A stretch of 62,379 nt of DNA, counting the filler, from Babesia bigemina (taxonomy: Eukaryota): NCBI RefSeq assembly GCF_000981445.1. It is 11 parts of 11 records of this genome, joined end to end, with 100 filler letters (N's around TTAATTAATTAA, not from the genome) between each part and the next. Parts side by side here need not be neighbours in the genome. Positions count along the whole stretch, not along the records: positions 1 to 12,797 come from NW_012237047.1; 10 more parts are not named here. The stretch is one strand, 5' to 3'. Each line of letters opens with the position of its first letter. Positions within the stretch are counted from its first letter, which is position 1. The translations under genes and the position numbers were made by a program. Under the pieces are notes generated by a model, which was not told where the DNA came from, did no database searches, and saw nothing but the letters and a program-made list of their open reading frames with translations. This document shows positions 2,493 through 58,492 of this stretch, in pieces.

Positions 2493-2930
2493 CTAGCTGC
2501 GCAGTAGATACCGCACCCTGTGGAACGGCCGGATGCGGAAGTAGCTCATGACGCAGATGGCGATGATGATGAGGGCGACGGGGACGATGATGATGGGTAT
2601 GACGACGGGGGAGGATGTGGAAGATGGTGGACCGGAGGTGTGCTGAAGGGTGGAGGAAGAGGTGACATGGGAGGATGTGCGGGATGCCTGTAGACTGCCG
2701 CCACGCTGAACAAGGGGTGCCGGAGGGCGTCTGCTCAGCCCGCAATAACATGAACACGCGCCAGGTTTACACTCTGTACATCCATCGGGCTCGCACTTTC
2801 CTTCTCCCCTCATGCGCTGACTGTAGATATTGCGACATATAGAAAAACATGATACACATTTATTACAAGACACGTAGCAGCAATAACAATTACTTCGAGT
2901 ACATTTATTGTTGCACTTACACAGCGCCAT
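2493..2930 (-). CDS. Small Cys-rich single-pass membrane protein (145 aa), ves-associated family member A
   Basis: Cys-dense N-terminal ~63 aa, Ser/Thr/Pro stalk, hydrophobic VVIPIIIVPVALIIIAICVMSYF and a basic tail. Homologous starts at 40058 and 47513 share the GGAAG-ATG context. Confidence 0.78.
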   Translation of the reverse strand: MALCKCNNKCTRSNCYCCYVSCNKCVSCFSICRNIYSQRMRGEGKCEPDGCTECKPGACSCYCGLSRRPPAPLVQRGGSLQASRTSSHVTSSSTLQHTSGPPSSTSSPVVIPIIIVPVALIIIAICVMSYFRIRPFHRVRYLLRS

Positions 2931-2938
2931 CTTCCCCT

Positions 2939-3478
2939 CCCAGTCCCCTCAACCTGCAAACATGTCAATCACCTAGCAACGCACTCACCAACTGCAACAC
3001 GTACCACTGCCGCTACCACTCCCCTCAACCTGCAAGCATATCAATCACCTAGCAACGCACTCACCAACACAACACTACCACTGCCGCTCCCAGTCCCCTC
3101 AACCTGCAAACATATCAATCACCTAGCAACGCACTCACCAACACAACACGTACCACTGCCGCTCCCAGTCCCCTCAACCTGCAAACATATCAATCACCTA
3201 GCAAGCACTCACCAACTGCAACACTACCACTGCCGCTACCAGTCCCCTCAACCTGCAAACATATCAATCACTCAAGCAGCACTCACCAACTGCAACACTA
3301 CCACTGCCGCTCCCAGTCCCCTCAACCTGCAACCATGTCAATCACTAACCAACGCACTCACCAACTGCAACACGTACCACTGCCGCTCCCAGTCCCCTCA
3401 GCCTGCAGACATATCAATCACCTAGCAACGCACTCACCAACTGCAACACGTACCACTGCCGCTCCCAGTCCCCTCATC
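2939..3478 (-). repeat. ~75-bp tandem array (~7 units) directly upstream of the Cys-rich gene
   Basis: Unit starts at 2941, 3017, 3091, 3166, 3240, 3314, 3390 and 3466. Confidence 0.95.
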
Positions 3479-3991
3479 AACACGCACCCTCACCCCTGTA
3501 CCCCCCCAGCCCAGGCCACCGACACCCACGCTGCCCGGGATACCACAGCTGCCCTGACGCGACGCATGTGATCAGCACCAACTGTCACTCTAAATTATTT
3601 ACTATTCGCAACGCGGTAAAAATTGCAGCGAGCCCCGTGCGCTCAACTCCCACAGTGCAGCAGCACCGTGCTACGAGCCGCGGTATCGGCGCCATGCTGG
3701 CGGAGCGTGTCGGCTACGTGCCTAAATGTGACATTAACGATCGTTACATTGCCGCCTATAAATGCTACTTAACCAGGCCAACTCGGATTGCGCCACCCTG
3801 CCAGTGACTCGCAACACACGACTTAGGTCACCCGCCGCGGTCCTCACGGCCGCCTACGTTAGCAACCAATCACCCAGCCTCACGTGACACTCACTCAATG
3901 GGCAACGCGGACGCCTCTCACAGTCAACGCACAACTCAACTTACCAGGCAATCAACGTGCTACAACACCCACCAAATTACGGTTCATCCGC
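3479..3991. promoter_or_regulatory. Conserved ~500-bp non-repetitive block (candidate promoter/regulatory element)
   Basis: Near-identical copies at 14731-15236 and 40836-41335, always between the 75-bp and 24-bp arrays. Function is inferred from position only. Confidence 0.45.
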
Positions 3992-4920
3992 CACCTTAGC
4001 ACTTAGCTTGGTTGCTAGGTTACCACTTTGCCTGGTTGCTTGCTTATCACTTAGCTTGGTTGCTAGCTTATCACTTAGCTTGGTTGCTTGCTTATCACTT
4101 TGCCTGGGTGCCAGCTTAGCACATTGCCTGGTTGCTACCTTAGCACTTTGCCTAGGTGCTAGGTCAACACGTTGCCTGACTGCTTGCTTAGCACATTGCT
4201 TGTGTGCTAGCTTAGCACTTTGCCTGCGTGCTAGCTTAGCACTTTGCCTGCGTGCTAGCTTAGCACTTTGCCTAGTTGCTAGGTCAGCACTTAGCCTGAG
4301 TGCTAGCTTTGCACTTTGCCCGGGTGCTAGCTTACCACTTTGCCTGGTTGCCAGCTTTGCACTTTGCCTGGCTGCTAGGTTAAGACCTTGCCTGCGTGCT
4401 CGCTTAGCACTTTGCCTGGTTGCCAGCTTAGCACTTTGCCTGGGTGCTAGGTGAGCACTTTGCCTGGGTGCTAGGTTAGCACTTAGCTTGTGTGCTACCT
4501 TACCACTTAGCCTGGGTGCTGAGTTAGCACGTCGCCTGATTGCTTGCTTACCACTTTGCCTGTGTGCCAGCTTACCACGTTGCCTGGTTGCTAGGTTAGC
4601 ACTTAGCCTGGGTGCTAGGTTACCACGTTGCCTGTGTGCCAGCTTAGCACTTTGCCTGGCTGCTAAGTCAGCACTTTGCCTGTGTGCCAGCTTATCACTT
4701 TGCCTGGTTGCTAGGTTATCACTTAGCCTGGTTGCTAGGTTATCACTTAGCCTGGTTGCTACCTTACCACGTTGCCTGGGTGCTAGCTTAACACTTAGCC
4801 TGGTTGCTAGCTTAGCACTTTGCCTGGTTGCTTAATCAACACTTTGCCTGGGTGCTAGGTCAACACTTTGCCTGGTTGCTAGCTTACCACTTTGCCTGGT
4901 TGCTAGGTCAACACGTTGCT
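3992..4920 (+). repeat. 24-bp tandem array (CTTAGCACTTTGCCTGGGTGCTAG), ~39 units
   Basis: Directly visible; ~145 bp downstream of the ves stop codon. Confidence 0.95.
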
Positions 4921-5065: not shown

Positions 5066-8000
5066 TCACGGTTGTAGATACGATATCTTGGCAAGCCTTC
5101 CGACTTGCGCCGCCGCCAACAATGACTGCGCCGTTATCTTGTGCGACGACGGTATCCTCAGGTGTGAGCGTATGTGGAGCACATCCAGTCTGCCAACCAT
5201 TACGCAGATGAGGTAGAAGAGGGAGAGTGACCAGAGTGCGAGAACCAAGTAGGTGAACGGTTGTCTGATGGTCCAAATGAAGTTGTCACATTCTTCAAAT
5301 AATTTGGTGAAGTGTTGCGATGTTAGTACGTTCTGTAATTGCGCGTAGAGGTTACGGCAGTATCTTCTTTGATCATCAGACAACAATTTTTCGGCGTCGC
5401 CAAATGTGAAGCCGTAGTTGTATAAAGTGCTCAGCACACCACGGCATCCCACCAGCGATCGGCACCGACAGCTGTATATATCGCCGTGTTTGCCCGGTCT
5501 ACAAGAAATGCCGTCGACACATCTGCTGCATCCCCAATCTTGACAAGAGATACTGCTATGCGAATCGAACAATGATTTCAGATAGCTATACAAAGACCAT
5601 GGTAAATACACGGCCCATGATAGGTAGAGGTTGCAATGCTTCTTTGCCAGATAGTGATACGAGTCGCAAAATAGAGTCTGAAGGTAAGGCCCGCAGTTAA
5701 CGTTGTCTTCGTTAGCAAGCATACATGACTCGTCCATTGAGAGGCTTGACATATCAGCCGATTTGGGGTTATGCTTACTTTTATCATGACTACTCTGGTT
5801 GCTACCATACGCGGCATCAAGCGCACTTGTAAGTTTGTTTGAGTCTTTATACAGGTCGATGGACACCGCGTTGATTGATGTGTTAAAAGCTGTCGTAACG
5901 TCCTGCGCAGTTGCATTTTTCGTATTATGCAATACATGAGTTAACGCCAACGCAAACTGGAAGTGCTCAGGCAGCGTGCTCGGCGGGCTGGGTACAAGGC
6001 ACAAAAGGGACGACACTAGGCCGCTACCAAACAGCAGTTTCAAAATCTCATATATATCTCTACCAGTTTTGGTAGATCCCGAGAACGCCCTGAAACCGAG
6101 GGGAGTGACGCATGGCATTCCGAGTTTAGCGACAGATGGACACGTTGAGCAAACGGACCGGCAGCCGATGGAAGTCAGCTTGTGAGGCAAGTGACCAGTT
6201 AGACAGTCACCCAGATACGACATTAATGGAGACGTTGGTTGACAATTTGGTCGGCACGTTACTTTGTCGTTTGGTTGGCATTTTGGTTCATCCGTTGAGT
6301 GATTTTTGCATGGCCATTTGTTCGTCTTGATATCTCTGCCGTATAGGCATTGCGCCCATCCACCGTGGTTTGTGCCTAGACTGCATTGGTAATACAAGTA
6401 TCTCAGTGGCGGCAACATACGACGCAGAATATCGAGAATGGTTTGCAGACATTCCTCACCGGAAGTGGGATATTTGAGGTTGAAGTAGTTTGTGTGGAAG
6501 TCGACCGCGTACACTGTCTCGGCGTTGCCGTGGCCCATGACGGTGGTGAGCAGATCATACGATTTCGTACACAGATGTTGCAACGCTGTGTTCACGCTGT
6601 TGTACGTAATGTTGCTCGGATGTGCCGTTATGGATTCCACCCGCGTGTCTGTTAACGTCAGCTCAAGGCCGTCATCGTCCACAACTCTCTGCTTAGATGG
6701 ATTCTCAAACGGCGCACTGAGGCCGTTCTGTAACAGCTCCTCGTAAACGGGGTGATGTGGGAGGCCGGTGAACCATACAAGCATTTCATGAACATTACAC
6801 GGCAGACGTGATTTGGGCCGGAGTGCTTGGTGGCAGACGTCGTAGTACTGCTTAAGGTAACTAGAAAGCGTATTAAGTGGTCCTTTCTCTCTTGCATCAT
6901 CGTGGCTGCTGTACACTTTCCCACTGCGACCGATAAGTCGGCCTAGGATATGCTCGCCGGTCATATCACTTCTGTCTTGCAGCTCGCCATTTTGCTCCCC
7001 GTTATCCGACACTTTGTAACCTTGCTCGGCTAACAGATCGCCAATGTCAGTATCTCTGTTGATTCGTTTCTTTGGCAAACTCTTGCAGTTAGATTTCAAC
7101 GTATGCAGCGAAACGTCCAAGGTGCGGAGCACCGTGAGGAACACCTTAGACAACCTGGTGCCTTCGTCAGTCAGATCATATTTCATGTTAACGTCACTAG
7201 TGCTGGAGACGTGTTGAAGGTTTTTTACTAGCTCACCGTAGAAGGTCTCACTATCATACACGCTCACGTACGCCTTTTCCAGCTCACCGTGCATCCTCTG
7301 CACGCCCTTTCTAAGACACTCGAGCAGGGGGTTGCTAGCGTCGGCGTAGGATGCGGGGCGGATGGTTGCGAGGAGGGAGGAAAGGGAGGAGAGGTTGGAG
7401 AGGAAGGGGCGGTTGAAACGGGATAATCCTGTAAATAATGCACCAAACGATTGGAGAAGTTCTGTGATTTTAACAGGTTCAGGCATGATTTGAGTGTTAG
7501 TGTCAAGTGTGGCAAACAAAGCGCTAAAGAAGATGTTAACGTCGGATGAAAAGTCAAGCAGAACATCAGTGCGCTGTGATGCTGCATTGAGATGCAAGAC
7601 TGCTTTATCATACAACTCCTTCATGAATCCCTTGTAGCATTTGTTTGCATCGTCTGCGATTTGTGCAGGCAGATGTTCGAGTTCCTTGTTGACTTTGTCG
7701 GCGAATTCCACAAGTTGGGATGCAATAAATTTGGCGTATCTCAATTTCAGGTGGTTGGTTATGCTGGACATGGCTCTGTCAAATTGTTCAGTGATTTTCT
7801 CGGAGAGTTGCTCGATTATAATGTTACCGTATCTACCGGCATCGTTAACAATTTCTTGAGCTTCGTCAACACGAGGGCGTATGTGTTTGGTTTGCAACTC
7901 ATACATCAGTGAGTGAAATTCCTCTAGACCACCTGGCAATTCGGTATTTCCTTTAGCAAGCATTCTTCTCAACTCTAATAACTTCGCCTTAGCACTATTG

Positions 8001-10723
8001 TGATCGGCGTCAGCGGCGTTTCTTATGGTGTCACAGAAGTTTGTGATGTGAGTCGTAATTAGCTGTGCTGTAGATTTTATCGTAGAAATATTAATTTGTT
8101 TTACGTTTACCGGAACAATGAATGCGTCTAACGCCTTTTCATGAACTTGTCTAATAGCCTTGCCAAGCGTACCGTTACTTTCAACATATATATTATAATC
8201 CGTCATTTTTGTCTTCAACTTCTGCCTATCGGCTTTCAGGTAATCCATCATGATTACTTCGATGTCATTATCAACTTCCTCGGTTGTTAAAATTTTGTCA
8301 AGCTGCTTGATCTTATCCTTTACGGTTAACAACGCCGTGCGTAGCTTTCCTCCGTATTTCGCATCATCCGTAAGTTCAGTCCATATTTCATTAGCTTTGC
8401 TTATAGCGTCGTCTACATTTTTTCCTAAGTTGTAGGCAACTATACCGTTGCTATGGTTTTCGGTGGTGAATGCCTTGATCTCATCTGCCGATTTTCTCAC
8501 TACGAGACTAAGTTGTGCTAATGCAGTTCGAATAGCAGATTGCAGATAGTCTTTAGACTGAACTGCGGAGGCTCGTGATGTCAAAAATTTTTTTTCAACT
8601 TCTGTAGCTATAACATTTGCATTATCCGGACTAACGCCTTTCTCAATTGCAGCAGCTACTTCATCATGGAACCTATTAATTTCTGATAGCATTGAAGCAA
8701 CGTTTCCACTGACGGCTGGTTTTTGTATGTTACCTTCTTTAACAAGTTTCACTATCTTCGGTATTATATCAGCGATAACTTCCTTCCGCTTCTGTTCCAA
8801 TTCGTTGCCACGCTGCGCACTACTAAGGTTATTACTCTGAATGTACCAGTCTATATGCATATTTACTGTATCGTTCTTTTCCAAAATCTTATTCAACCAG
8901 CTCTCCACCGTTATTGCAAACGCATCCGTTGTAAGTTTTTGAGCATACTCCTTCAATCGTTCTTTTATCCCTTCAAGGCCGTCATGCTTTGGATGCCCTT
9001 TTTCTTTCCCTGCTCCAGTCCCATTAATTTTTTTGATAAGTCCATTAACCACAATCTTCAGCATACCCAAATTGTGTTGGATACTATTATCGCTACCGCC
9101 AGAAGTCTGCTCTAGTGTGTTCCTCTTAATTTCATCAAACTCCACGCGAGCCCACTCTATATACTCCTTCAACTTTTCTTTGATTTCTCCTTCCAATCTC
9201 TGCAGACCTTTTACGATAACTCCATCTAATCCTGTAACCGCAGTTTTAACATTTTTTATCAGATGCGGCAGGGCTTTTTCAGCTATCTCATAAGCCTCAT
9301 ACAAAGCCACTCCTTTTCTTTCCAAAGTCAGAACGGCCTCTTTGAGTTTCTCTACATATTGAGTTTTAGATTGGCCCGTAGCTTCACACAATACTTGTTC
9401 AACTTTATTTAACGCAACTATGACAACCTTGTCTGCTTTCGTGATCCACTCGTTAAGTTCATTGACATAATGTGTCAACAACCCATTTATATCTGAGAGT
9501 TTCTGTTTAATTTCAGATATCTTCTCGCATATTACGCTTACGAACGCTTTAATGTTCTCAACGGCCATCTCATTTATTGTATTTCTAGCAGCATTCAGTT
9601 GAGTTTCTATCAACTCACTGGCATGCTTTATATGAAGTTGTTCTATTTTCCATACTTCACCAAGCCGCCAATACTGATATGTAATTGCATCACTAGCATT
9701 ATTAATTTTAGTTTGCAAGTCCGTTTGTAAATCGTCTATATTCTTCTTCTCAGCTGCCATGCCATCATCGTATGACTGCGCTTGTTGGAGGCATGTCTGC
9801 ATATGCGCATCTACTTGACTCACGGCCATGTTAATTTCACCTGCAACAGCATTACTAATACTAATTCCACTTACCGATGCTTTGATCTCTTTCATTTGTT
9901 GTGTGAAAGTGTCAATGACATTTCTTACAGCTTGATTACTCTCCCTCACCTTCTCATTATACCCCCGCACCCCTGCGACCACCCTTCCAATCGCAGCATT
10001 AAAACCGTTTTTACCGGCGTGTTTATTGGTGTTAAGAATGTCAATTGTTTCATTTAAAGTCTCTTTATGCTGCCCTAAATGCTCTTTGATGTTGCTGAGA
10101 ACACCACTCAAAAATCCCATCACCCCGTCACACAGCCTATCCAGGTCAGAGTACACAATACCACTGCCGTCGTAGCCTTTGGAGGCAGCATTGAAGCCGA
10201 GGAATTTCTCGAGGCCGTCACATAAATGCGTTAAAATATTATTATTTTCACCATTTTTAGTAAGTGATTCAGCAAATTCAGCAAGCTTCTTCACAGTCTC
10301 CAAAGCAGACAACTTGGACTGACAGTCATGTAAACGCTTATTTTCTTCTTCAGTTAGATATGAATTTTGCTTACTTTGAAGCTCTTTTATAGTTTCAGGA
10401 AGATTTTTGACTTCATTTTTTATCGCTTCTTTAATCTGCTCGAAACTTTTTTTCTTGGGAGTAGTAGACTCAGTAGGCTTAGCAGGCAAAGGAGCCGAGC
10501 CGGCAGGCGAGGCGACGGAAGAAGAAGCTTTAGCGAGAGGGTATTGCTTGTTTAGAGATTCATAAGCTTTACCTATAGCCTCCTCAATCAACTTTTTCAA
10601 AGCTTGAGACAACTTGGTAAGACCATCATCACCACCATTCCCATACCTAACCTGGATCAACCAGTCGATGGACTCAGTCAGAAGGGAAGTGAAAGGTGAC
10701 AAGTCACAAGTTATTAGGATGGT
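5066..10723 (-). CDS. ves1: VESA1-like variant surface antigen, near full-length open frame (~1,885 codons)
   Basis: N-terminal ESIDWLIQV, GIVYSDLDRLCDG, long helical variable region, Cys-rich C-terminal region, TM (FTYLVLALWSLSLFYLICVMV) and tail RLDVLHIRSHLRIPSSHKI..SYLQP. The ORF-track start is TTG, not ATG. Confidence 0.92.
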   Translation of the reverse strand, partial: TILITCDLSPFTSLLTESIDWLIQVRYGNGGDDGLTKLSQALKKLIEEAIGKAYESLNKQYPLAKASSSVASPAGSAPLPAKPTESTTPKKKSFEQIKEAIKNEVKNLPETIKELQSKQNSYLTEEENKRLHDCQSKLSALETVKKLAEFAESLTKNGENNNILTHLCDGLEKFLGFNAASKGYDGSGIVYSDLDRLCDGVMGFLSGVLSNIKEHLGQHKETLNETIDILNTNKHAGKNGFNAAIGRVVAGVRGYNEKVRESNQAVRNVIDTFTQQMKEIKASVSGISISNAVAGEINMAVSQVDAHMQTCLQQAQSYDDGMAAEKKNIDDLQTDLQTKINNASDAITYQYWRLGEVWKIEQLHIKHASELIETQLNAARNTINEMAVENIKAFVSVICEKISEIKQKLSDINGLLTHYVNELNEWITKADKVVIVALNKVEQVLCEATGQSKTQYVEKLKEAVLTLERKGVALYEAYEIAEKALPHLIKNVKTAVTGLDGVIVKGLQRLEGEIKEKLKEYIEWARVEFDEIKRNTLEQTSGGSDNSIQHNLGMLKIVVNGLIKKINGTGAGKEKGHPKHDGLEGIKERLKEYAQKLTTDAFAITVESWLNKILEKNDTVNMHIDWYIQSNNLSSAQRGNELEQKRKEVIADIIPKIVKLVKEGNIQKPAVSGNVASMLSEINRFHDEVAAAIEKGVSPDNANVIATEVEKKFLTSRASAVQSKDYLQSAIRTALAQLSLVVRKSADEIKAFTTENHSNGIVAYNLGKNVDDAISKANEIWTELTDDAKYGGKLRTALLTVKDKIKQLDKILTTEEVDNDIEVIMMDYLKADRQKLKTKMTDYNIYVESNGTLGKAIRQVHEKALDAFIVPVNVKQINISTIKSTAQLITTHITNFCDTIRNAADADHNSAKAKLLELRRMLAKGNTELPGGLEEFHSLMYELQTKHIRPRVDEAQEIVNDAGRYGNIIIEQLSEKITEQFDRAMSSITNHLKLRYAKFIASQLVEFADKVNKELEHLPAQIADDANKCYKGFMKELYDKAVLHLNAASQRTDVLLDFSSDVNIFFSALFATLDTNTQIMPEPVKITELLQSFGALFTGLSRFNRPFLSNLSSLSSLLATIRPASYADASNPLLECLRKGVQRMHGELEKAYVSVYDSETFYGELVKNLQHVSSTSDVNMKYDLTDEGTRLSKVFLTVLRTLDVSLHTLKSNCKSLPKKRINRDTDIGDLLAEQGYKVSDNGEQNGELQDRSDMTGEHILGRLIGRSGKVYSSHDDAREKGPLNTLSSYLKQYYDVCHQALRPKSRLPCNVHEMLVWFTGLPHHPVYEELLQNGLSAPFENPSKQRVVDDDGLELTLTDTRVESITAHPSNITYNSVNTALQHLCTKSYDLLTTVMGHGNAETVYAVDFHTNYFNLKYPTSGEECLQTILDILRRMLPPLRYLYYQCSLGTNHGGWAQCLYGRDIKTNKWPCKNHSTDEPKCQPNDKVTCRPNCQPTSPLMSYLGDCLTGHLPHKLTSIGCRSVCSTCPSVAKLGMPCVTPLGFRAFSGSTKTGRDIYEILKLLFGSGLVSSLLCLVPSPPSTLPEHFQFALALTHVLHNTKNATAQDVTTAFNTSINAVSIDLYKDSNKLTSALDAAYGSNQSSHDKSKHNPKSADMSSLSMDESCMLANEDNVNCGPYLQTLFCDSYHYLAKKHCNLYLSWAVYLPWSLYSYLKSLFDSHSSISCQDWGCSRCVDGISCRPGKHGDIYSCRCRSLVGCRGVLSTLYNYGFTFGDAEKLLSDDQRRYCRNLYAQLQNVLTSQHFTKLFEECDNFIWTIRQPFTYLVLALWSLSLFYLICVMVGRLDVLHIRSHLRIPSSHKITAQSLLAAAQVGRLAKISYLQP

Positions 10724-13490: not shown

Positions 13491-13610
13491 CCATGTCATC
13501 GCTGCCGTAACCAGTAACCATGTCATCGCTGCCGTGACCATGTCATCGCTGCCGTGATCATGTCATCGCTGCCGTAACCTTAACTTGGTAACCATGTCAT
13601 CGCTGCCGCG
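13491..13610 (+). repeat. 20-bp tandem repeat
   Basis: CCATGTCATCGCTGCCGT units. Confidence 0.88.
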
Positions 13611-13611
13611 T

Positions 13612-14730
13612 CCAGTCCCCTCAACCTACTAACTTATCAATCACTCAAGCAGCACTCACCAACTGCAACACGTAGGCACTGCCCGCTCCAGTCCCCTCAA
13701 GCTGCAAGCATATCAGTCACCTAGCAACGCACTCACCAACTGCAACACGTACCACTGCCGCGCCCAGTCCCCTCAGCCTGCAAACATATCAATCACTCAA
13801 GCAGCACTCACCAACTGCAACACGTACAACTGCCACTCCCAGTCCCCTCAACCTGCGAACATATCAATCACCTAGCAACGCGCTCACCAACTGCAACACT
13901 ACCACTGCCGCTACCAGTCCCCTCAACCTGCAGACATATCAATCACATAAGCAACGCACTCACCAACTGCAACACGTACACTGCCGCTCCCAGTCCCCTC
14001 AACCTGCGAACATGTCAATCACCTATGCAAGCACTCACCAACTGCAACACTGCCACTGCCGCTCCCAGTCCCTTCTGCCTGCAAACATATCAATCACTCA
14101 AGCAACGCACTCACCAACTACGACACGTACCACTGCCGCTCCCACTCCCCTCAACCTGCAAACATATCAATCACCTAGCAACGCACTCACCAACTGCAAC
14201 ACGTACCACTGCCGCTCCCAGTCCCGTCAAGCTGCAAGCATATCATTCACCTAGCAACGCACTCACCAACTGCAACACGTACCACTGCCGCGCCCAGTCC
14301 CCTCAGCCTGCAAACATATCAATCACCTAGCAACGCACTCACCAACTGCAACACGTACCACTGCCGCGCCCAGTCCTCTCAACCTGCGAACATATCAATC
14401 ACATAACCAACTCACTCACCAACTGCAACACTACCACTGCCCCTCCTAGTCCCTCAACCTGCATAAATATCAATCACCTAGCAAGCACTCACCACCTGCA
14501 ACACTACCACTGCCGCTACCAGTCCCCTCAGCCTGCACGCATATCAATCACCTAGCAACGCACTCACCAACTGCAACACTACCACTGCCGCTCCCAGTCT
14601 CCTCAGCCTGCGAACATATCAATCACTCAAGCAGCACTCACCAACTGCAACACTACCACTGCCGCTCCCAGTCTCCTCAGCCTGCGAACATATCAATCAC
14701 TCAAGCAGCACTCACCAACTGCAACACGTA
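13612..14730 (-). repeat. ~75-bp tandem array (~15 units)
   Basis: Same unit as 2939-3478. Confidence 0.95.
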
Positions 14731-15236
14731 CCCTCACCGCTGTATCCCCCCAGCCCAGGCCACCGACACCCACGCTGCCCGGGATACCACAGCTGCCCTG
14801 ACGCGACGCATGTGATCAGCACCAACTGTCACTCTAAATTATTCATTATTCGCAACGCTATAGAAATTGCAGCGAGCCCCGTGCGCTCAACTCCCACAGT
14901 GCAGCAGCACCCTGCTACGAGCCGCGGTATCGGCGCCATACTGGCGGAGCGTGTCGGCTACGTGCCTAAATGTGATATTAACAATCGCTACATTGCCGCC
15001 TATAAACGCTACTTACCCAGGCCAACGCGGATTACGCCACCCTGCCAGTGACTCGCAACACACGACTTAGGTCACCCGCCGCGGCCCTCACGGCCGCCTA
15101 CGTTAGCGACCAATCACCCAGCCTCACGTGACACTCACTCAATGGGCGACGCGGACGCCTCTCACAGTCAACGCGTAACTCAACGCAACAATAAATCAAC
15201 GTGCTACGACACCCACCAAAATACGGTTCATCCGCC
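14731..15236. promoter_or_regulatory. Conserved ~500-bp block, copy 2
   Basis: Near-identical to 3479-3991. Confidence 0.45.
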
Positions 15237-15348
15237 AGCTCAGCACTTTGCCTGGGTGCTAGGTTAGCACTTTGCCTGGGTGCTAGGTTAGCACTTTGCC
15301 TGGCTGCTAGGTTACCACGTTGCCTGTGTGCTAGCTTAGCACTTTGCT
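15237..15348 (+). repeat. 24-bp tandem array, ~5 units
   Basis: Same unit as 3992-4920. Confidence 0.9.
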
Positions 15349-16176: not shown

Positions 16177-16669
16177 TGATAAACGGCAATGCTCGAGCAG
16201 TGTTTATACGAGTGACGTCCGAGATAACTGGTAACTAGGTGGCGCATACCGAAACCGGGTACCAGGCGGAAAAGGAGTGACATTCTGCACCATATATCAC
16301 CTATATATCAGGCATGTCAATCGAGTAATGGCCAACGGGAGCTGAATGTGCAGCCCTGTATACCAGTTGACTACATTAAAATGGGTTTGAAATTGTAAGT
16401 AGCGTGACGGCTGCCACTTTTATATGCTCATTTGTCACGATTCGTGTGAGTGGAGTGCTATAGCGAGCTCTGAAAGCGCCTCCCGTTCTTCTTGATCGCT
16501 AACACGTCCCAGGCTATCTTTGCTGCCAGAACTCTGGCATTGGTAGTTTTACTGCACCTTTTTCCAAAAAAGGCCAGGCCCACGCCAGGGGAGCGTTTCT
16601 TGTCCATAGGTGACAAATAGTTGCTGCCCTTTCGTGCCGTACTTGCACGGTAAGATCCAATCCCGGGTG

Positions 16670-18300
16670 TTAATCCGTGTCATCACTCCCAATTGCTGGT
16701 ACATGGCTGTCCAGGTCCACACAAACCCTTCCTTTAGCGTTCACTTTTATACCCTCAATAAACTTATCGCTAACCATATCGTATCGCAAAAGGTCGACGT
16801 CTGTACCGATTGGAGTCTCATAATTCATTCTAAAATTTGTACATTGTGGATGTAACTGATGGATTTTCTCAGGTTGTGTAACATCTGGAGACTGTAAAAC
16901 TCGGGTTAATGAATTTTTGACTGCATTTAATTTGTGTAATCCTTCAAGAAAATCTTCGCCCCGATCACAGTCTAACGTGGTGTCTCCGTGATCCTCCACC
17001 CACAACGAGTCGTCTTCTTTCCCTTTGGTGTTGATTTTGTTAAGTTTGTTGTATAGATCTCGTTGGAAGCTTGCCATGTAAGTCTTAGCAGATGGCATTG
17101 CCCCAAAGCCAGCTGGCATGTTGAAAACCTGTAAACAGTGAAGACGGCCGCGCAATCTCTAACGTTCGATTTGTGTGATCGTGCTTAGCAATATGCCTTA
17201 AACACAACGTAGTTCAACACTGCAGTAATGCATACCTAGTCACCCAACTAACCTTTTGCTTCAATATCTCAAGCCGCTTTGCCTCCTTAAATTTCGCGTG
17301 TTTTTGAACCAACCGCTCGGCCTTTTCGCCGCCTAATTGCTCATACTGCCACTTATATAAGCTTAATGCGGATAATACTTACATCTATACGCTGTGGTGA
17401 CGCTCGAAGATAATGTAACAGTGCATCCATAACAGATGAAACCGAGGAAATCTCCTTAAGTGATGATTGTGGCACCACTAAATCCGAACCTTGCATGTAT
17501 ATTTTGCAAATGGAATAGACTCCAATGAGAACGGCGGTAACGTCACTGAGATCAGGAAGATCCCTCTCTACCTGCGTGGAATATACACAGACATGCGGAT
17601 GTTTTGGCACCAGTGTTTTCCCGAGCCTCCAGCCACGGTTGCAGAAATTACATTGTAAGCGTGAATACCACTCGATTTGTCCCTGGCATGAAAACGGTTA
17701 CAGAAGCTATGCTTCAAGCGATAACTAAGAATTCGAGCAGGAACAGAACAGCTGGATACACTTGCACAAATTACAAATAACACACAAACATGTGCATCTA
17801 TATCTCCCGCAAGATTAAATGGAACAATTGCTTCTTCAGACTTACTTGTTGGTACCTCCTGCATCTGACACGTTTGATGCATCCACGGCATATCTGTGCC
17901 TCGGGCACTCCGAAGAAGTTTCGCAATTTTTTGGCCGACTTCATAACATTATTTGGCATCGATTCTACCGGGGGTATCATGCTGGATATCGTTGTGCAGC
18001 GCAAAATAGAGATAAGACCTACACCTTCCGATTGGGGCAGATGACTGGGCATTCCATGTGTATCATTGTCTTTAAGTGTTGTTTTTCCGTAGGTCCCAGG
18101 AACCTCACGAAATGCGTGAGAGATCTCCCACGAGTGGCATTGAGAAGCCCCTTCTTTAGATAGACTCTGTTGGGATTCTTGGTTGCGAGGATGGCGCCAG
18201 TTTTTACGCCTAAATTCACCAGTTTCTCTATAAATTCTCCACACAGGCCAGGCCATCGATCCGATGCTATTGGCAACAATTTCGATGGTGTGGTAGACAT
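16670..18300 (-). CDS. Multi-exon conserved protein with OZ1/VAR3-like motif (exon boundaries partly unresolved)
   Basis: ORF pieces WPGLCGEFIEKLVNLG, SAKKLRNFFGVPEAQICRGCIKRVRC and DLSDVTAVLIG. Short GT-AG introns at 17129-17163 (35 nt), 17220-17252 (33 nt) and 17352-17382 (31 nt). Confidence 0.55.
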
Positions 18301-18678
18301 GTTTTACATGGTCAATGTAAACAATTTTTAAGCTGCCTTTATCCCGTGATGCAAGATTCTATGCGTGTGTGTGGATGAGACACTGCAACGGCAGTCACAC
18401 ATTTCGGTACAAGGACGCATATAAGTCTTAGATACTAATTAAAACGTCCATATTATTAGCAAGGGGCGTGGGTGACGATCGCAAGCCGTTGCTTCGTAGC
18501 ATATAATGAGGGGTATCCAACGGCGGTACTTATGACACACAGATAAGGGCGTTTATTGTCCCCCCTGATGAAATGACCACTATCAGGTTATAATGTGAAA
18601 TGTAACTTGCCTGTGACGGCAGTGTAACGCTTTGTGGCTGTCTCTGTTTTTGCTGTTATAACATGACGTACCAGCAGG

Positions 18679-21629
18679 ATGCCTGTTAAGGTTTATGCGG
18701 AGCCACGGGGCTTCAAAGCTGTAAATCAACGCCAAGTCAGCTCCCTCACCGTCTCTAATAAGTCGGTGTGGTTTGGTCTGCAGGATGGTCGGATTCTGCG
18801 CTACACCTGCCCATCAAGTTCAACTCAGGATTCCAGATCAACCCATACGTCGGCTGATGTGTGACTTTGCGCCCCAAGGCACAAGGTACGTCAAATGTAT
18901 CGCATGTATTTCCTCATCGCTAAGTAGGGGCTGCTTCTGAGGTGCACGACTGTTCGTAGACACGAAATCCTTCCACTGTATCGCATGCCTCGCATCCGGA
19001 CACCACTGGTACTCCAACTTTCAAGCCCCTGACTGGTATCGCTAAACAGTTTAAACGGGTGCTCCTGCGCTCTGCTTGTTTCCCGGAGGCCAACAGTGAG
19101 GACTCCCTGTGATCGTCCTACTAAGCACCAAACCGGCAACCTGGTTGAAGGGCCCATTACTACCGCCAAGGGACTTTGCCTTTCCACGCCGTATAATTTC
19201 CCGGAGGGGGAGCCAGTACTCGACATAGGCATTATTCCCGTGGTGTATCGCGGCGGACGCTGTCATGTGTTGGTGGCTTCGTCCACACGTTGCCTCTACG
19301 AGTTCTTTGGAGGCACGTCGTTCGATGACACCTTTTCGAAGTACTCGAAGACGGGTGCCAATGCGTTGCGATACGAGGTGCCGCTGGCTGGACCAATCGG
19401 GGATATCATCGTCTCCGAGCGTAGTGACGGGAGCCACGACTTATTCTGGGCGAATGCTACGGGGATAGTATTCGTGAACGTCCCGTATCGTGTGGCAGAC
19501 GACGCTTCAAGTTGTTTGAAGTTCCCGCCCAGCGTGATAACCTATATTATGACGCCACAACATCCTCTTTCATCACTGCAAGAGACCAAGTTGCGACATG
19601 TGAGGACCTTCTTGCGCCGCCCCGCCATCCAGGTGCCTAGAAGCGTTGTGGTGGTCCGTGATTCGCTGCTCCTTCTATACGACGACACCATAGGCGTGGT
19701 GAACACCATAGTCGGTAAACAAGTTGGCACGCTGCCATTACCTCACGGCGCATTTGGCAAGGTGCACTGGCTGTTGCGCGACCGTTTGACGGGTGAAGTG
19801 TGGCTCCATGCCACCGAAGGCATGTTCGAGGTCAGTGTCAGCGCGGAGTCCGAAGATGCGTGGAAGCACTATTTGTTCAAGGGTGACATCGCCAACGCCC
19901 TTTCCAGCTGTAAGACCTCAGGGCAACGCGACAACGTACTACTTAAAAGCGCTTATGACTTGTACGAACGTGGGAAATACCTTGAGTCGGCGCGTATGTA
20001 TGGACAGGTGGAGGCTAGCTACCCTAACTTTGAGAACATTTGTCTCAACTTTCTAAAAAAGCACCAGGAGGAAGCGGTTGTGGAGTACATCACCATGAAA
20101 CTGCAGCAGCGCAATTGGTACCGGTACAATCCGCGTTTCATCATCCTCACAGTATGGATTATCGAAATGCTCGGGTACCGTTACCGGGACGTCTTCCTCA
20201 CCCTGCAGGCGAGCCGCGGCGTGTCGGGCATTGACACTGGTGCCCTGGCAACTCGGTGTGAGGAGTACCGGCGAAAGCTGTTTTCCACCATAGGGTCGCT
20301 GGCGCACATTGATGAGCTGGCACCCTCGATCAACTTTCTGCTGCAGACCGTTATGGGCTGCGGGGACGAGTGTGTGGATTTCGCCCGTATCCGCCGCGAT
20401 TCGTCAAACGTGGTCTACTACATGATTAACAGTGGCAACGTTGAAGGGGCATTGAGGGAGCTCATTAAGATGCCTCCCAGCGATAAGCGAGACGCTTTGG
20501 TGCTGAGGTTTGCCCCGCTGATGTTCATGGACGCCCCAGCGTTGTTTGAGCAGGCCTCGTTCAGCAAGCTGGACCCGGTGATACTGCTCCCCATTGCCCT
20601 TTTGCCGCTGATGATGCGAAATGAGCGTTACCTGCGCCACTCCTTGGGCATGGTGGAACGGCTGCTTTTTTCCAACGAAACTGCGCACGAGGAGTCGAAG
20701 CGTTCGCTGCTGTGGTGCTGCTACATCCTTCTTTTAGCTAACTTGGAGACTGAGGAGCCCTTGTTGGAAGTACTCAACAAGAATCTGGTAGATTTCCGCC
20801 ACATTGACCTCGCTATAGCACTTCGCTATCTAAAGGTCAAATCGTCAACGGACAGCCGGTGGTCTGTGCCCTTTATTGTCTTGCAAAGTTTATGCGGCAT
20901 GAACGAGGATGCGCTGGAAATGGCGCTTTCCCAGAACAATATGGAATTGGCGAAACAGTGCGCAATGAGGCCGTCAGACGAATTTACCCGTTGCCGTCTC
21001 TGGCGCTACATTCTGCTCCAGTCTTCCCGCAATGGCGAGGCATCTTTGGGCTCCATCATTGACACGTCAAACGGACTGCTACAAGTGCACGACCTTTTGC
21101 ACCTGCTCCCAGAAGACACGAAATTGGGCGACCTGAGCAGCATCATCTCGAGGTCTGTGGCCGAGTATGAATCCGACCTGGAGGAGCGTCGCCAGGAGGT
21201 TGACCACCTCTGCGCATGCATCGCCGAGACCAAGTCGGAAATTGAGATGGCTTCTCGCCGCTGCGTTAGCCTGCCCGTGGACAGAAACTGCATGTCATGC
21301 TCTCACCCACTGCATACGGTCATTTCATCGTATTTCCCTGCGCGCACGCATTTCATCGTTCCTGCGTGGCTACAACGCTTCGCAGTTTGCTGAGCGGAGC
21401 TGATCTGTTAGAGCTAAAACGCCTGCACAGGGAAATTCGAAAGCGAGTGGATGAGCGTAGCGTATCGGCATACAACGAGTACCTGTCGAGGGCATGTGTG
21501 GATTGCGGCTACCCCGCTTGCCTCTTGGCCTCCAAGCCTTTCATTGCCAACGTGAACCCGGCCCAGAAAATTGGTGGGAATAAATATTTTGGCAATATTC
21601 TTAAACCCCCGGGCCGCCCGGACCCCTGA
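18679..21629 (+). CDS. VPS18: Vacuolar protein sorting 18 (Pep3), HOPS/CORVET subunit; apparent frameshifts
   Basis: Beta-propeller-like N-terminus, ESEDAWKHYL, helical/clathrin-repeat region (AKQCAMRP..RCRLWRYI), C-terminal RING-H2 CMSC..FIVFPCAHAFHRSC..CVDCG split by a frameshift near 21315. Confidence 0.85.
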
Positions 21630-22975
21630 AATTTTTTTAAAAATTCCCTTTGGCCCAAAAGGGGGGGGGGCTTTAAAATTGGGGAAACGGGGCTAAATGG
21701 GAAATTCTTTTTTGACGGAATTATGTACAAAAACGGCGGATCCAGCTTGAACTTTCTATTCATGAGCAGCGGTTTGTGCGCCTTGGTACTGCGATTTCGC
21801 AGGTGTCGCTGCGGTACTTGGGAATAGTTACCAACTGGATGTACCGCTCTTGGACATCCTCCGGCGTGCGCTGCATCTCCCACGACAAGTACAACCAGGG
21901 GTCCCCGTATTCGGCGTCGTAGAACTCGGCAAGCCGCAGGAGCTCAGCGTCGTCCTCTGACTCCCACGGCATACCCTCGTTTGCTAGCGGTTTGGCCTAC
22001 TCCAGATGAGTCTGCTCATCACCAACCCCACCTGAAAGGTACTAATATAGTCATCGTATTTGCCAAGCGGCCACATGCAGTGGTTGTATAACCTGCAGTT
22101 ACCATGTGTTTTCCCACACACTGGACGAACGTGATATGCTTGAAGATGGTGCGCCGCTGTTTGTGGTCATGCTGCGGTTGATAAGAGTCCTACCGGAATG
22201 AATTGCGGAATATCACCCTACCCCCAAGGTGCGGCTGAAGAATTCCATCCACGGCTGGAACGATTCAGGCATGAGCTCAGCTCCTTCCTGGTACCGGCGC
22301 AATTAAGGAACTCCAAGATGCCCCATCCTCGGCACAACTATATCGGTCAAGTCTATCCAGTTGCTAAACATATCTATAATCCGGTTTATGGTATGAGCTT
22401 GCTGCTCGTCTACAGGGACGCTAAGGTGGTTAACGCATCGTACCTGGAGGTGGCTTGGCATGCGCTTGTGCTATGGCTCTCTTCTCATTTTCTATGTCCC
22501 GTATCCTCTGTTGCTTCAGAAACATCCGGAAGGTCTTCATATCTAGGTAGCGTAGAAGCCGCTTTATGGGCGGGCCTGCGATCATATGGCGCGCTTGTAG
22601 GCAGCACATACCGAGCTCCTCCATCGAGTTATCACATCGCACAGCCGAAGTTGCGATTGACCTGATAGCGCCGGAGAGCTCTCTCACAGGACGCGTTGAT
22701 AGTGCAGCGGCGCATTGGAGTGGTCTATTACAGGTGTACACTGCCACAGCGTACGGGCTGACATTACCGACACAGTTTCCCAGACCGATCCAAAAATTGG
22801 CCCTGTTGAGGCACTGTAGCCGGCTATGACCAAGTATCTCAAACAGTATCATGTGTTGTTTGCTGTATGTGTGAGACGTAACAACAATAAGAGCGGATTC
22901 TCCGGCAGGCCTCCACAATGTCGCCGACAAGATTCCACAGCACCTGTTCACATAGTGACGGCTGAGTAGCGCCAA
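21600..22975 (-). CDS. Multi-exon hypothetical protein with Myb/SANT-like segment
   Basis: Exon pieces linked by short GT-AG introns. PWESEDDAELLRLAEFYD..W..LSWEMQRTPEDVQERY resembles a Myb repeat; Arg-rich, acid-poor N-terminus. Boundaries approximate. Confidence 0.45.
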
Positions 22976-23310
22976 GTAAGTGTGTACACGCTTGTGTTAC
23001 TTTGGCGCTGTCTGGGACGCGAGTGAAGTCGGTAGTAGGTGGTTATCCCGGGTGTCGTGGTGTAGGCGCCTTCCACCCTGCCGGCGGGAGGGCACGCGCC
23101 AATGTATCGTTTGCACCTTCAAGCGTACAGAATTAACGAGTGCACAGTTTTACAAGACATAATAGGCCTGCTTCCAGTTTTTTGTTACACATCTTACTGG
23201 GCCAAGGTGCCGCAGGGTGTTCATATGTAACGTTGTAACTACTTCCGCGCCTACGTTTATAGTGATAGTTCACTTCGTTCTTTAAAATCGCATTATGACC
23301 CCTCGACAGG

Positions 23311-24841
23311 ATGGCCTGGAGCCAATCTGGGCCTCAATTCCAGCGCGTTCCGCACTTCGACATTTGTGAGCTGTTTGACCTATCGAGCATCATAATCGTA
23401 GACGGCGAGCGGAGATGCACTCGACCTCCCTACTGCCACTACGAATCCGACCATGAAGCTGCCCTGGAGTTGTCAAGCTCACTCTACCCAGCCCCGAAGC
23501 ACCGTCGGACGGGCGTAGGTTCAGTATCGGTACTGGCGCCTCGGCCCCTGCCGCCTGAGCTGCAGCCAACGGTGATCCTTGATTGTGACCTTAAGAAGGA
23601 TTTGCCGACAAGCCATGTTGACCTGTTTGCGTTCAAGGATGAATATCGCCAGGTGATAGAGCGACTGGATGCGCTGCGGCAGAAGTCCATCGACATCAAG
23701 AAATCGCGCTTGAAAAGACAGATGAAAGGAGTTACCTCTGCCTGCCTCACGCAGCTGTGCCAGTTGCGGACGGAACATCGTTGAAGCGCTACTTAGCGCG
23801 ACCTATCCTCTCACCGACGATTACCGAGGTCATTTGGGATGCCGCCGACATGAACTTGCGCCACATGGCGAAGATACGGAGGGAACAGGACCAGAACGCC
23901 CGTAAGCGTTTAGACCTAACCGTCGACGAAGATAGTAATGTTTGGTCGGAGAAACCGCTACACAAGTTGTTCGCGGATATTGTCACCCTCGATAGCTACC
24001 AGCTTGGTTATTGGCGAGCGACGGTATGCGTATCGCAACATGCCAGATGAGCTAGAGACAACACGGCCGCTGATCCTTACGGGCCCCCATAATCAGTCGA
24101 GCGCGCCGTTGTTACACCAAAGCGCCACCGAACGCTACCTTTAGGAGCAGAGCCTGATCGGCTCTCATCATGACTGCGGATGACGATCTGATAGTGACAG
24201 TTTACTCTGTATCATGGGTGTCAGAGGCCACAAACTGTGCGAATACGACTTACAGGCGTCCCTAAGCCGCCCCTACCTGCGCGACTTGTTTCCGCTGCCC
24301 TGCCGAGATCCGCCCAGTGGGCGTCGACCTCGAGGTGCGCGGCTCCTGTTTTATGTTGAATGGCCAGCTGTTCCCCGACCTCCGTGGAGACGCGTGCGAC
24401 TACTCAGAGCCCCTTTTGCACTTCTATCAGCAGTTCAAACCGGGCGCACTACACACGAGCGAGTGTATCGAGCAGAGCGATGCAATTCTGTATCATATGG
24501 AGCTGCCAGTGTATATTCCTGGGTACCTGCTGCACCACGGAGACTGCGAGCACAGGATGATGATAACGGCTGTACGAGCATTCGACCGCGTGCGCGACTG
24601 TCCATACGAGCCCTGCTACCCCGTATGCGTCTTCATGCCACGCCGGCGCTCCGTGCAGTGCCACATCTGCGAGCTCAGGGAAGCCGACAAGTCCGTGTTC
24701 AACAGTCTGGCGCTGCCTCAAATCCCGTGTTACCTATGCGACGACTGTTACGGTCGGTTCCAGCGCCTAGGAACGTTGGATGGTGTGTATCGCTCCGATG
24801 GCCTGGCGAAAACTGCGGCGATCGAGTTTTGCGAGGAGTGA
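23311..24841 (+). CDS. SNAPC3: snRNA-activating protein complex subunit 3 (SNAP50); introns/frameshifts
   Basis: SCFMLNGQLFPDLR..DYSEP, LLHHGDCEHRMMIT, YP..CHIC..PCYLCDDCY match the SNAP50 C-terminal zinc-finger pattern. Confidence 0.82.
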
Positions 24842-25408
24842 CAATGGACCTTAAGGGCCCAATACTTATTATAATTTAGTCCCAATCGAGCACATCGCGC
24901 CCGACGTACTTATGTCGCTGTTGTGAGCGGCTTTTATCGAGTTTTGCTGCCCCCAAACGGGCTGCGGCTCTGTTGGTCGGCGTGGCCCGCAGCCACGATT
25001 TTAGGCGGCGGCTGTGACCACTTTTTGGCACTTTACTAGATGCTATAGCCTCAAATAACCACCAGTTCGGATGTCTTGTGAGAAATAATGGGCTCTCTGG
25101 CACCTGCTGTGCTTCCCCATTACCGACCCTGGCGTGGTGGGTGGGTCGCGCGGCGCCGGTTTCCCGGAAACCGCAGGGCCTGCCGTCATTTCACGCAGTA
25201 TCGCCTTTTTCTACTTTTACGGCGAAACCTATACATCGGAATCCATCGGAAAGCTTCCCGCAAACGCTTCAGCAGGTGGGTTGGACGTGGTGTATACACC
25301 GGTTGCGTGGGTTACGTGCGTGCGTGCCTCGCCTCTGACTGAGCCGCGCCCTGCACGCAAACCGCTGATATTACCATTGTTGTTGTGGCTCCTAACTTCT
25401 GTTGCAGG

Positions 25409-26794: not shown

Positions 26795-26919
26795 CGCTGC
26801 TCCTCCCGGTGGTCTCACGCGCCGCCTCGCAGTCGCGGGCTGCGATGACACCTAAACCTTACTCGCACAGGCCCTTTATATATCGCTAAAAGCAACAATT
26901 ACGTTACACTTATTTTGCG

Positions 26920-39879: not shown

Positions 39880-40058
39880 AGATGACCAAAGTATGCCCGG
39901 CAGTCAGTCTTATTTTTGCGCAGGAGGAGATATCCCCAACATCCATTGCAATTGTCACTCTTACATTTTTCACAGCACCACGAGCAGCAGACACAACTAA
40001 ACCGTGGACAACTAATATCACATGTACACGGAGAACCTGACGTGGACACCCAAACCAT
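39880..40058 (-). CDS. Small Cys-rich protein, family member B (5' part, cut by gap)
   Basis: MVWVSTSGSPCTCDISCPRFSCVCCSWCCEKCKSDNCNGCW..; same position and ATG context as member A. Confidence 0.72.
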
Positions 40059-40067
40059 CTTCCGCTA

Positions 40068-40835
40068 CCAATCCCCTCAACCTGCAAACATATCAATCAC
40101 CTAAGCAGCACTCACCAACTGCAACACTACCACTGCCGCTCCCAGTCCCCTCAACCTGCAGACATATCAATCACTCAAGCAGCACTCACCAACTGCAACA
40201 CGTACCACTGCCGCTCCCAGTCCCCTCAACCTGCAAGCATATCAATCACCTAAGCAACGCACTCACCAACTGCAACACGTACCACTGCCGCTCCCAGTCC
40301 CCTCAACCTGCAAGCATATCAATCACCTAGCAACGCACTCACCTACTACGACACGCACCACTGCCGCTCCCAGTCCCCTCAACCTGCTAACATATCAATC
40401 ACTCAAGCAACGCACTCACCAACTGCAACACGTGACACTGCCGCTCCACTCCCCTCAACCTGCAAGCATATCAATCACCTAAGCAACGCACTCACCAACT
40501 GCAACACGTACCACTGCCGCTCCCAGTCCCCTCAACCTGCAAGCATATCAATCACCTAGCAACGCACTCACCTACTACGACACGCACCACTGCCGCTCCC
40601 AGTCCCCTCAACCTGCTAACATATCAATCACTTAGTCAACGCACTCACCAACTGCAACACTACCACTGCCGCTCCCAGTCCCCTCAACCTGCAAACATAT
40701 CACTCACTCAAGCAGCACTCACCAACTGCAACACTACCACTGCCGCTCCCACTCCCCTCAACCTGCAAGCATATCAGTCACTCAAGCAGCACTCACCAAC
40801 TGCAACACTACCACTGCCGCTCCCACTCCCCTCAT
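40068..40835 (-). repeat. ~75-bp tandem array (~10 units)
   Basis: Same unit as 2939-3478. Confidence 0.95.
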
Positions 40836-45205: not shown

Positions 45206-45211
45206 CAGTGA

Positions 45212-47400: not shown

Positions 47401-47513
47401 CCACACTCACCGCAATAGACACTCTTACATGTTGCGCAACACCACGGACAACAAACACATGATCGACCCATTCGACATCCCGTACCACATATACACGGAT
47501 CCCCGCTCCCCAT
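47401..47513 (-). CDS. Small Cys-rich protein, family member C (5' part, cut by gap; absent from ORF track)
   Basis: Translated by hand: MGSGDPCICGTGCRMGRSCVCCPWCCATCKSVYCGEC; GGAAG-ATG context. Confidence 0.72.

Positions 47514-57829: not shown

Positions 57830-58492
<663 letters not shown>

What the first reader, a model, noticed from the sequence alone, without database searches (positions are those of the whole stretch)
2939..3478. 75-bp repeat units are a 34-35-nt spliceosomal intron plus a ~40-nt exon: a tandem mini-intron 5' UTR
SEEN: on the Cys-gene sense strand the units contain GTGAGTgcgttgctaggtgaTTGATatgtttgCAG, with a strong donor, a branch-point-like TTGAT/TTGAC and a TTTGCAG acceptor. 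Examples are 2954-2988 (35 nt), 40082-40115 and 47543-47576 (34 nt). Ordinary introns in this window are 31-35 nt (17129-17163, 17220-17252, 17352-17382). In the ~34 units of the four arrays, the GT and AG were retained wherever I checked while neighbouring bases vary (variants GTGAGC and TAG remain valid). Most introns hold an upstream ATG (ATG TTT GCA GGT TGA), and the last exon has an in-frame TGA before the real ATG, so the exons are UTR. INFERENCE: a variable-copy array of 2-15 UTR introns whose removal strips uORFs. This could be a splicing-dependent expression rheostat or an intron-proliferation mechanism.
Basis: partly seen in the sequence, partly recalled or inferred. Interest (0 to 1): 0.86.

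Follow-up and report, generated by a model that had tools for sequence, protein, structure and literature searches.

The report
Tandem mini-intron repeats before Babesia genes
In a cattle parasite (Babesia bigemina or a very close relative), a 75-base tandem repeat of 2-15 copies, each a short intron-like stretch plus a non-coding spacer, sits in front of small cysteine-rich membrane-protein genes and is likely spliced out copy by copy from their untranslated leader, though no RNA read has shown this yet.

Summary
The sequence observation holds. Four arrays (7, 15, 10 and 2 units) give 34 of 34 units with G|GTGAG(T/C)...YAG segments of 34-36 nt and 39-42-nt spacers. 33 of 34 segments hold an ATG; 0 of 30 internal spacers do. 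Three arrays end just before a Cys-rich ORF, with an in-frame TGA upstream of its ATG. The 15-unit array has no ORF. The ORF belongs to an unnamed family of at least 37 annotated B. bigemina proteins lying beside ves1 antigen genes. The intron-like layout beats shuffles (15 of 5000). GT+AG conservation alone does not beat chance (P about 0.10); the extended signals do (P 0.013-0.002). Ab initio reference models already appear to splice at these sites, as coding exons. I found no RNA junction evidence either way. Best reading (about 0.58): a leader intron plus exon amplified by ordinary DNA-level tandem duplication, with each copy kept spliceable because it hides a four-codon uORF. It is not intron transposition. 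The rheostat is untested.

The parts
2937..3476 (-). 75-bp tandem array A1, 7 intron-like segments plus spacers
   Evidence: TRF period 74/149, 92% matches; units parsed
3403..3437 (-). candidate intron 1 of A1 (35 nt)
3327..3361 (-). candidate intron 2 (35 nt)
3253..3286 (-). candidate intron 3 (34 nt)
3179..3212 (-). candidate intron 4 (34 nt)
3104..3138 (-). candidate intron 5 (35 nt)
3030..3064 (-). candidate intron 6 (35 nt)
2954..2988 (-). candidate intron 7 (35 nt); the following exon has TGA in frame with the ATG at 2930
2493..2930 (-). 145-aa Cys-rich ORF: 16 Cys in the first 65 aa, Ser/Thr/Pro linker, one C-terminal TM helix, no hydrophobic N-terminus; member of a B. bigemina family of hypothetical proteins
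3477..3994 (-). conserved ~515-bp block upstream of the array (candidate promoter and first leader exon); 93-94% identical copies at 14722-15237 and 40835-41337
3725..3731 (-). single TYAYWWW initiator-like site (TCACATT) in the block, at the same offset in all 3 copies (14975, 41088); weak, could be chance
   Evidence: motif from PMC4148916
3995..4906 (.). 24-bp tandem repeat between the ves1 stop and the block
5066..10723 (-). upstream VESA1-family ORF (1885 aa stop to stop)
   Evidence: Atlas scores 0.96-0.98 to clusters with VESA1_N on 14-79% of members; no Pfam hit
13603..14732 (-). array A2, 15 units, no Cys-rich ORF behind it (runs into the 20-bp repeat)
40054..40834 (-). array A3, 10 units, higher-order 229-bp period
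39880..40058 (-). start of a second Cys-rich ORF behind A3 (cut by the contig end)
47543..47664 (-). array A4, 2 units, with a different upstream region (no 515-bp block)
47401..47513 (-). start of a third Cys-rich ORF behind A4 (cut by the contig end)

Best explanation
Each 75-bp unit is likely a real 34-36-nt spliceosomal intron plus a ~40-nt non-coding exon in the 5' leader of a ves1-linked family of small cysteine-rich membrane proteins, and the arrays likely grew by DNA-level tandem duplication of intron and exon together, not by insertion of new introns. Inferred working: transcription would start in the upstream block. The spliceosome would remove every copy, giving a G-rich leader whose array part has no ATG, and translation would start at the conserved GAAGATG. 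Adding a unit changes no protein, so copy number can drift (2-15) as in the other spacer minisatellites. A copy that lost its splice signal would leave a four-codon uORF (M-F/L-A-G-stop) in the leader and would damp the gene, which would explain why the extended splice signals are the best-kept part of the unit. Shown: sequence layout, strand, uORFs, co-duplication, the protein family. Inferred: transcription across the array, splicing, selection.
For: 34 of 34 units have the full signal set at a fixed 34-36 nt, on the ORF strand only. Shuffle rate is 15 of 5000. In this window 31 of 32 matches to the strict intron pattern lie in the arrays. The 8-position and 11-position splice masks are fully invariant (P 0.013, 0.0017) and fit in only 1 of 77 registers. 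ATG is confined to the segments (33 of 34 vs 0 of 30), and the last exon has TGA in frame with the ORF in 3 of 3 cases. 9 of 24 annotated B. bigemina relatives carry peptides that the window's units give only after removal at exactly these donor and acceptor sites (0 unspliced, 10-17 per array spliced), so gene finders trained on B. bovis appear to accept the sites. The array stays with the ORF even where the upstream block differs (A4). Whole units, intron plus exon, are identical in tandem (A2 1=2, A3 4=7), and distances within and between arrays are alike (8.8 vs 8.1). One family member, BBBOND_0111400, is in a published differential-expression table (logCPM 8.28, logFC -9.16), so the family can be transcribed. 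Two runs of unrecorded library type from two studies hold the units with similar indels, so the repeat is not an artefact of this assembly.
Against: No RNA read shows a junction or a start site. GT+AG alone is not more conserved than chance (P 0.10); 5 of 10 GT and 3 of 7 AG dinucleotides in the unit are fully invariant, and a 6-nt invariant run also lies in the exon. Units are not independent samples. The ORF-less array A2 keeps all 15 sets of signals although it is the most diverged, which selection on an mRNA does not predict. The neighbouring 24-bp repeat also gives 6 donor+YAG matches on the same strand. The spliced leader would be about 560 nt with three ATGs left if transcription starts at 3731, against a B. 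bovis median 5' UTR of 152 nt. 34-36 nt is not shown to be typical here: the one homology-supported intron is 42 nt, the B. bovis mean is 60 and the T. parva short mode is 55. 0 of 18 named family loci are among the 3,721 genes passing the expression filter in one RNA-seq table (cross-strain mapping, weak). I could not check that BBBOND_0111400 has an array.
Confidence: 0.58

Rival explanations
1. The array is an unspliced minisatellite, perhaps a fossil intron-exon piece, upstream of or at the promoter. Gene conversion among ves1 spacers keeps the units alike, and the splice-like motifs are passengers.
For: It is one of five tandem repeats (12, 20, 22, 24 and 75 bp) in the same spacer. About half of all columns are invariant. 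Exon columns are about as conserved as intron columns (29 variant alleles in 41 columns vs 25 in 36). Units are shared between arrays. The ORF-less array keeps the motifs.
Against: The extended splice mask is invariant in only 1 of 77 registers (P 0.013-0.002). Segment length never falls below 34 nt despite frequent internal indels. No initiator motif lies inside any array or between it and the ATG. If transcribed unspliced, the leader would hold up to 15 uORFs.
Confidence: 0.22
2. The array is a splicing-dependent gate: retention of any copy leaves a uORF, so copy number or regulated splicing sets how much protein is made.
For: Unspliced units give 4-codon uORFs in most copies (7 of 7 in A1). 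Copy number varies 2-15. One family member differs about 570-fold between two strains (logFC -9.16).
Against: There are no data on retention, on protein level or on copy number versus expression. The strain difference is at RNA level and could be transcriptional switching or a mapping effect. Strong, uniform splice signals suggest constitutive splicing.
Confidence: 0.12
3. The spacers are coding micro-exons that add a Gly/Ser-rich N-terminal extension, as many reference gene models assume.
For: 18 of 24 annotated relatives carry spacer-derived peptides; two of three spacer frames are open.
Against: Spacer lengths of 39-42 nt shift the frame. The longest stop-free stretch after splicing is 53-80 aa, and TGA is in frame with the Cys ORF in 3 of 3 cases. 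The models switch between several donors to stay open, some read the Cys domain off-frame (P0008, P0009), and they are ab initio consensus predictions.
Confidence: 0.08

Closest known systems
Intron gain by internal (tandem) gene duplication
   Same: An intron and its flanking exon are copied together at DNA level, raising intron number. [quoted passage not shown]
   Different: Here the unit is only 75 bp, appears non-coding, and behaves as a variable-number minisatellite (2-15 copies) shared across a gene family.
Epstein-Barr virus internal repeat 1 (BamHI W repeat)
   Same: A variable-copy tandem repeat in a transcript leader, each unit holding exons that are spliced together, homogenised by gene conversion (PMC5686732, passages).
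   Different: IR1 units are 3 kb, carry a promoter and two exons, and encode EBNA-LP. These units are 75 bp, show no initiator motif and break the frame. An analogy only.
B. bovis ves1-beta variable intron number, and smORF genes
   Same: Linked to ves1 loci; ves1-beta has 2-11 introns of variable number; smORFs are small ves1-associated variant genes.
   Different: The passages read do not describe ves1-beta introns as tandem copies. smORFs have signal peptides, 42 of 44 are single-exon, and none was found in B. bigemina. This family has a C-terminal TM helix and no hydrophobic N-terminus.
Introner / introner-like elements (recalled, not from a call)
   Same: Many near-identical short introns in one genome.
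   Different: Introners sit at unrelated sites with unrelated flanks. Here the flanking exon is co-duplicated head to tail.
B. bigemina reference (BOND) hypothetical-protein models
   Same: 9 of 24 appear to be spliced at the same donor and acceptor, so the introns are implicit in the database annotation.
   Different: They treat the spacers as coding, rest on ab initio prediction, and the family is unnamed.

Membership tests
U2-type spliceosomal intron (short class) | GT donor with extended consensus | tested here: met
   G|GTGAG in 34 of 34, +6 T in 33 of 34
U2-type spliceosomal intron (short class) | YAG acceptor with pyrimidine run and branch-like motif | tested here: met
   YAG in 34 of 34; strict YTNAY pattern in 31 of 34; shuffles 15 and 0 of 5000
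U2-type spliceosomal intron (short class) | Length within the organism's intron range | tested here: inconclusive
   One homology-supported local intron is 42 nt; the three cited ones are unverified; B. microti 20-25 nt, B. bovis mean 60
U2-type spliceosomal intron (short class) | Splice signals more conserved than the rest of the unit | tested here: inconclusive
   P 0.10 (GT+AG), 0.013, 0.0017 (extended); units not independent; ORF-less array also intact
U2-type spliceosomal intron (short class) | Excised from the RNA | not testable with these tools
   No parasite RNA run was served; the lays were no test
5' UTR intron | Lies between the transcription start and the start codon | tested here: inconclusive
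   Upstream of the ATG with an in-frame stop in 3 of 3; start site only suggested by one initiator-like motif
Introner / introner-like element | Related introns at unrelated sites with unrelated flanking exons (recalled definition) | tested here: not met
   Exon and intron are duplicated together in tandem
VESA1 (for the small ORF) | Homology to the conserved VESA C-terminal domain | tested here: not met
   hhalign probability 5%, 20 columns (shallow profiles)
VESA2 / SmORF (for the small ORF) | Signal peptide, no membrane anchor | tested here: not met
   Best N-terminal 19-aa hydropathy 0.91; TM peak 3.35 at residue 109; definitions
EBV IR1-type leader repeat | Each unit carries a promoter and coding exons | tested here: not met
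   No TYAYWWW in any array (weak test); spacers break the frame

The most novel reading that the evidence does not exclude
The array is a copy-number-tuned splicing gate on an unnamed family of variant, ves1-linked membrane proteins of B. bigemina: every unit hides a four-codon uORF that only splicing removes, so recombination that adds or drops 75-bp units, or stage-specific intron retention, sets how much of each variant protein is made.
Probability: 0.13. Interest if true: 0.82.

Novelty: new variant of a known kind. Interest (0 to 1): 0.55.

Why it matters
If the units are spliced, this is a very compact case of a minisatellite whose repeat unit is an intron plus exon. It gives a natural series (2-15 copies in this window, in a family of dozens of loci) for asking how intron number changes and what keeps non-coding introns spliceable. 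It can be tested at once with published RNA-seq. It also points to an overlooked family of at least 37 small Cys-rich membrane proteins beside the ves1 antigen genes of a cattle pathogen, whose reference models are probably mis-annotated at the N-terminus.

Tried and rejected
No genome is held for the window, so there is no genome-wide unit count or intron-length distribution. Run search: no RNA holder listed. Lay on 3362-3995 (4 of 24 listed runs): no joints in any run; X1 and X2 (RNA by guess only) gave intron-containing contigs of the unit. Control lay on the single-copy stretch 16177-34100 (X1, X2, X3, X12): 0 records laid for X1, X2 and X12, so these runs are no test of splicing; trace DNA of a multicopy repeat explains X1 and X2. 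DNA pattern scans: 0 in metagenome contigs; 3 single bacterial matches in genome contigs, treated as chance (only L001 checked, no 75-bp array). Earlier scan findings: none. Pfam: no family for the small ORFs or the ves1 ORFs. Atlas for the small ORF: best score 0.84, a lead only, not used. AlphaFold model: pLDDT 53, only the TM helix confident, so no fold search. My idea that the Cys-rich part is itself an intron (a GTAAGT..CAG stretch) was dropped because the Cys pattern is conserved across relatives. VESA1 homology of the small ORF was not supported. An automated splice search of Vps18 failed on draft indels; the 42-nt intron was read from the orthologue by hand. Family loci were absent from single-cell supplements (0 of 6), a proteomics table (0 of 5, one file not searchable) and B. 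ovata supplements (no control hit, uninformative). P0046 (E 7.6e-4, TM only) was dropped from the family count. Folding energy per base of the spliced and unspliced leader was similar (-0.33 vs -0.29), uninformative.

Full report
Setting. The window is a string of draft contigs joined by ten 100-base linkers. Vps18 matches B. bigemina best (92% against 63-68% for four other Babesia species), with an identical N-terminal stretch and indels that look like draft errors. The 1885-aa ORF at 5066-10723 scores 0.96-0.98 to VESA1-type clusters in the Atlas. On the minus strand the order is: ves1 stop, 24-bp repeat, a ~515-bp block (three copies, 93-94% identical), the 75-bp array, a small ORF, then 12-, 20- and 22-bp repeats and the next ves1-like gene.

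Observation. Four arrays hold 7, 15, 10 and 2 units. All 34 have G|GTGAG(T/C) ... TGA(T/C)A ... G(C/T)AG segments of 34-36 nt, separated by 39-42-nt spacers. The cited coordinates are exact. ATG lies in 33 of 34 segments and in 0 of 30 internal spacers. Unspliced, most give a four-codon uORF across the acceptor. Three arrays end about 25-30 nt before a GAAGATG start of a Cys-rich ORF, each with TGA in frame upstream. The 15-unit array has no ORF. Runs X3 and X4 (library type not on record, two studies) hold the units with similar indels, so the repeat is real DNA.

Is it more than chance? Donor, branch-like motif and acceptor at 30-40 nt occur in 15 of 5000 dinucleotide shuffles of a unit, and in 0 of 5000 with the pyrimidine run. 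Donor plus YAG alone is common (198-580 of 5000) and occurs 6 times in the neighbouring 24-bp repeat. Among 28 units cut on an exon motif, 36 of 71 free columns are invariant. GT+AG gives P=0.10, G|GTGAG+AG 0.013, and with the branch TGA 0.0017; the extended masks fit 1 of 77 registers. The units are related and the branch mask was chosen after looking. The 'ordinary 31-35-nt introns' exist as GT..AG stretches but do not give one frame when removed together. One intron supported by orthologues is 42 nt. Published values are a B. bovis mean of 60 and B. microti 20-25 (PMC3467087, passages), and a T. parva short mode of 55 (PMC2612703, passages). So 34-36 nt is plausible but not shown typical.

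The gene. The 145-aa ORF has 16 Cys in its first 65 residues, a Ser/Thr/Pro linker and one C-terminal TM helix. Searches found 24 relatives and 14 more with a full profile scan. 37 are B. bigemina hypothetical proteins and one weak TM-only hit was dropped. No other Babesia species appeared. There are two tail types. It is not detectably VESA1, and it lacks the signal peptide of VESA2 and SmORF as defined in PMC4066756 (sections 22 and 23 and passages) and PMC2034396 (passages). Of the first 24 models, 18 carry spacer-derived peptides and 9 carry peptides that the window's arrays yield only after removal at the proposed sites. The 13 later proteins were not run through that script. I did not see the models' exon coordinates. 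The annotation was an ab initio consensus, manually improved, so this is agreement from trained predictors, not RNA evidence.

Expression. In the supplement of PMC10975891 (519 differential genes), 1 of 17 family loci searched appears: BBBOND_0111400, logFC -9.16, logCPM 8.28. By the sign convention of the paper's Table 4 it is higher in the virulent strain. Whether that locus carries an array was not checkable. In PMC9806345 (supplement and passages), 0 of 18 loci pass the 1-CPM filter among 3,721 genes, while neighbouring genes do. Reads of another strain mapped to variable paralogues make this weak. My own lays gave no test of splicing.

Mechanism. Intron and spacer are copied together: identical whole units stand in tandem, a 229-bp higher-order period exists, and units are as alike between arrays as within. 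That is slippage or unequal exchange plus conversion, as for the other spacer repeats, not intron transposition. The most economical reading is a leader intron plus exon that can be amplified at no cost to the protein and must stay spliceable because each copy hides an ATG (0.58). A single initiator-like TCACATT at the same offset in all three blocks (motif from PMC4148916, passages) would put the start about 255 nt before the array, but this leaves three upstream ATGs and a long leader. The intact ORF-less array is the main fact against selection. The rivals are an unspliced minisatellite (0.22), a regulated gate (0.12) and coding micro-exons (0.08).

What is known. Intron gain by internal duplication is a recognised route (PMC3488318, passages). 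EBV IR1 is a variable-copy, exon-bearing leader repeat (PMC5686732, passages), but it is 40 times larger and coding. I found no description of this repeat or family in ten full-text searches (listings only unless named here), or in passages of PMC5660447, PMC10463595, PMC6630957 and PMC7126163. PMC9531838 was searched in its supplements only. The library lacks most subscription papers, and one supplement of PMC4066756 could not be searched. The Introner comparison is recalled, not from a call.

Verdict. A real, well-formed intron-exon minisatellite in front of an unnamed ves1-linked gene family. It is likely spliced and unproven at RNA level: a new variant of a known kind. Interest 0.55.

Noticed in passing
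window 2516-2454 and 2312-2249 (-): Behind the Cys ORF's TM segment lies a tandem copy of the TM module. Two GT..AG stretches of 63 and 64 nt, if removed, keep the frame through the second TM module. Reference models P0017, P0019 and P0023 appear to join modules at the same motif. Possible alternative C-termini; untested.
   Followed up: partly
window 43806-45219 (+): Five 287-bp tandem copies of the family's second tail type (TM plus basic tail) without the Cys domain, upstream of the 12/20/22-bp repeats and a ves1-like gene.
   Followed up: partly
window 13603-14732: The longest and most diverged array has no ORF after it yet keeps all 15 sets of splice signals; unexplained under the selection model.
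   Followed up: partly
each unit, e.g. window 3375-3362 (-): The spacer holds a second donor-like G|GTACGT in 41-nt variants and an acceptor-like TGCAG near its end; three units have tandem acceptors 3 nt apart (40648, 40419, 13659). Alternative splicing is possible.
   Followed up: no
BBBOND locus tags: Family members are numbered next to proteins of one VESA1B peptide group (0305030/0305020, 0200060/0200070, 0111400/0111420, 0305330/0305310), suggesting the cassette is general beside ves1b.
   Followed up: partly
window ~58200-60150: Cloning-vector sequence with a TEM-type beta-lactamase ORF (58826-59698; name recalled from the translation), a draft-assembly contaminant.
   Followed up: no
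window 37693-39779: A peptidase-like fragment is present twice about 1043 bp apart ('falcilysin-like' is recalled); possibly a mis-assembly.
   Followed up: no
whole window: Ten 100-base N/TTAATTAATTAA linkers join draft contigs. Vps18 shows indels against its orthologue, so single-base variants may include read errors.
   Followed up: yes
window 34146-34733 (-): A 33-bp repeat with an open frame of 251 aa stop to stop, unexamined.
   Followed up: no
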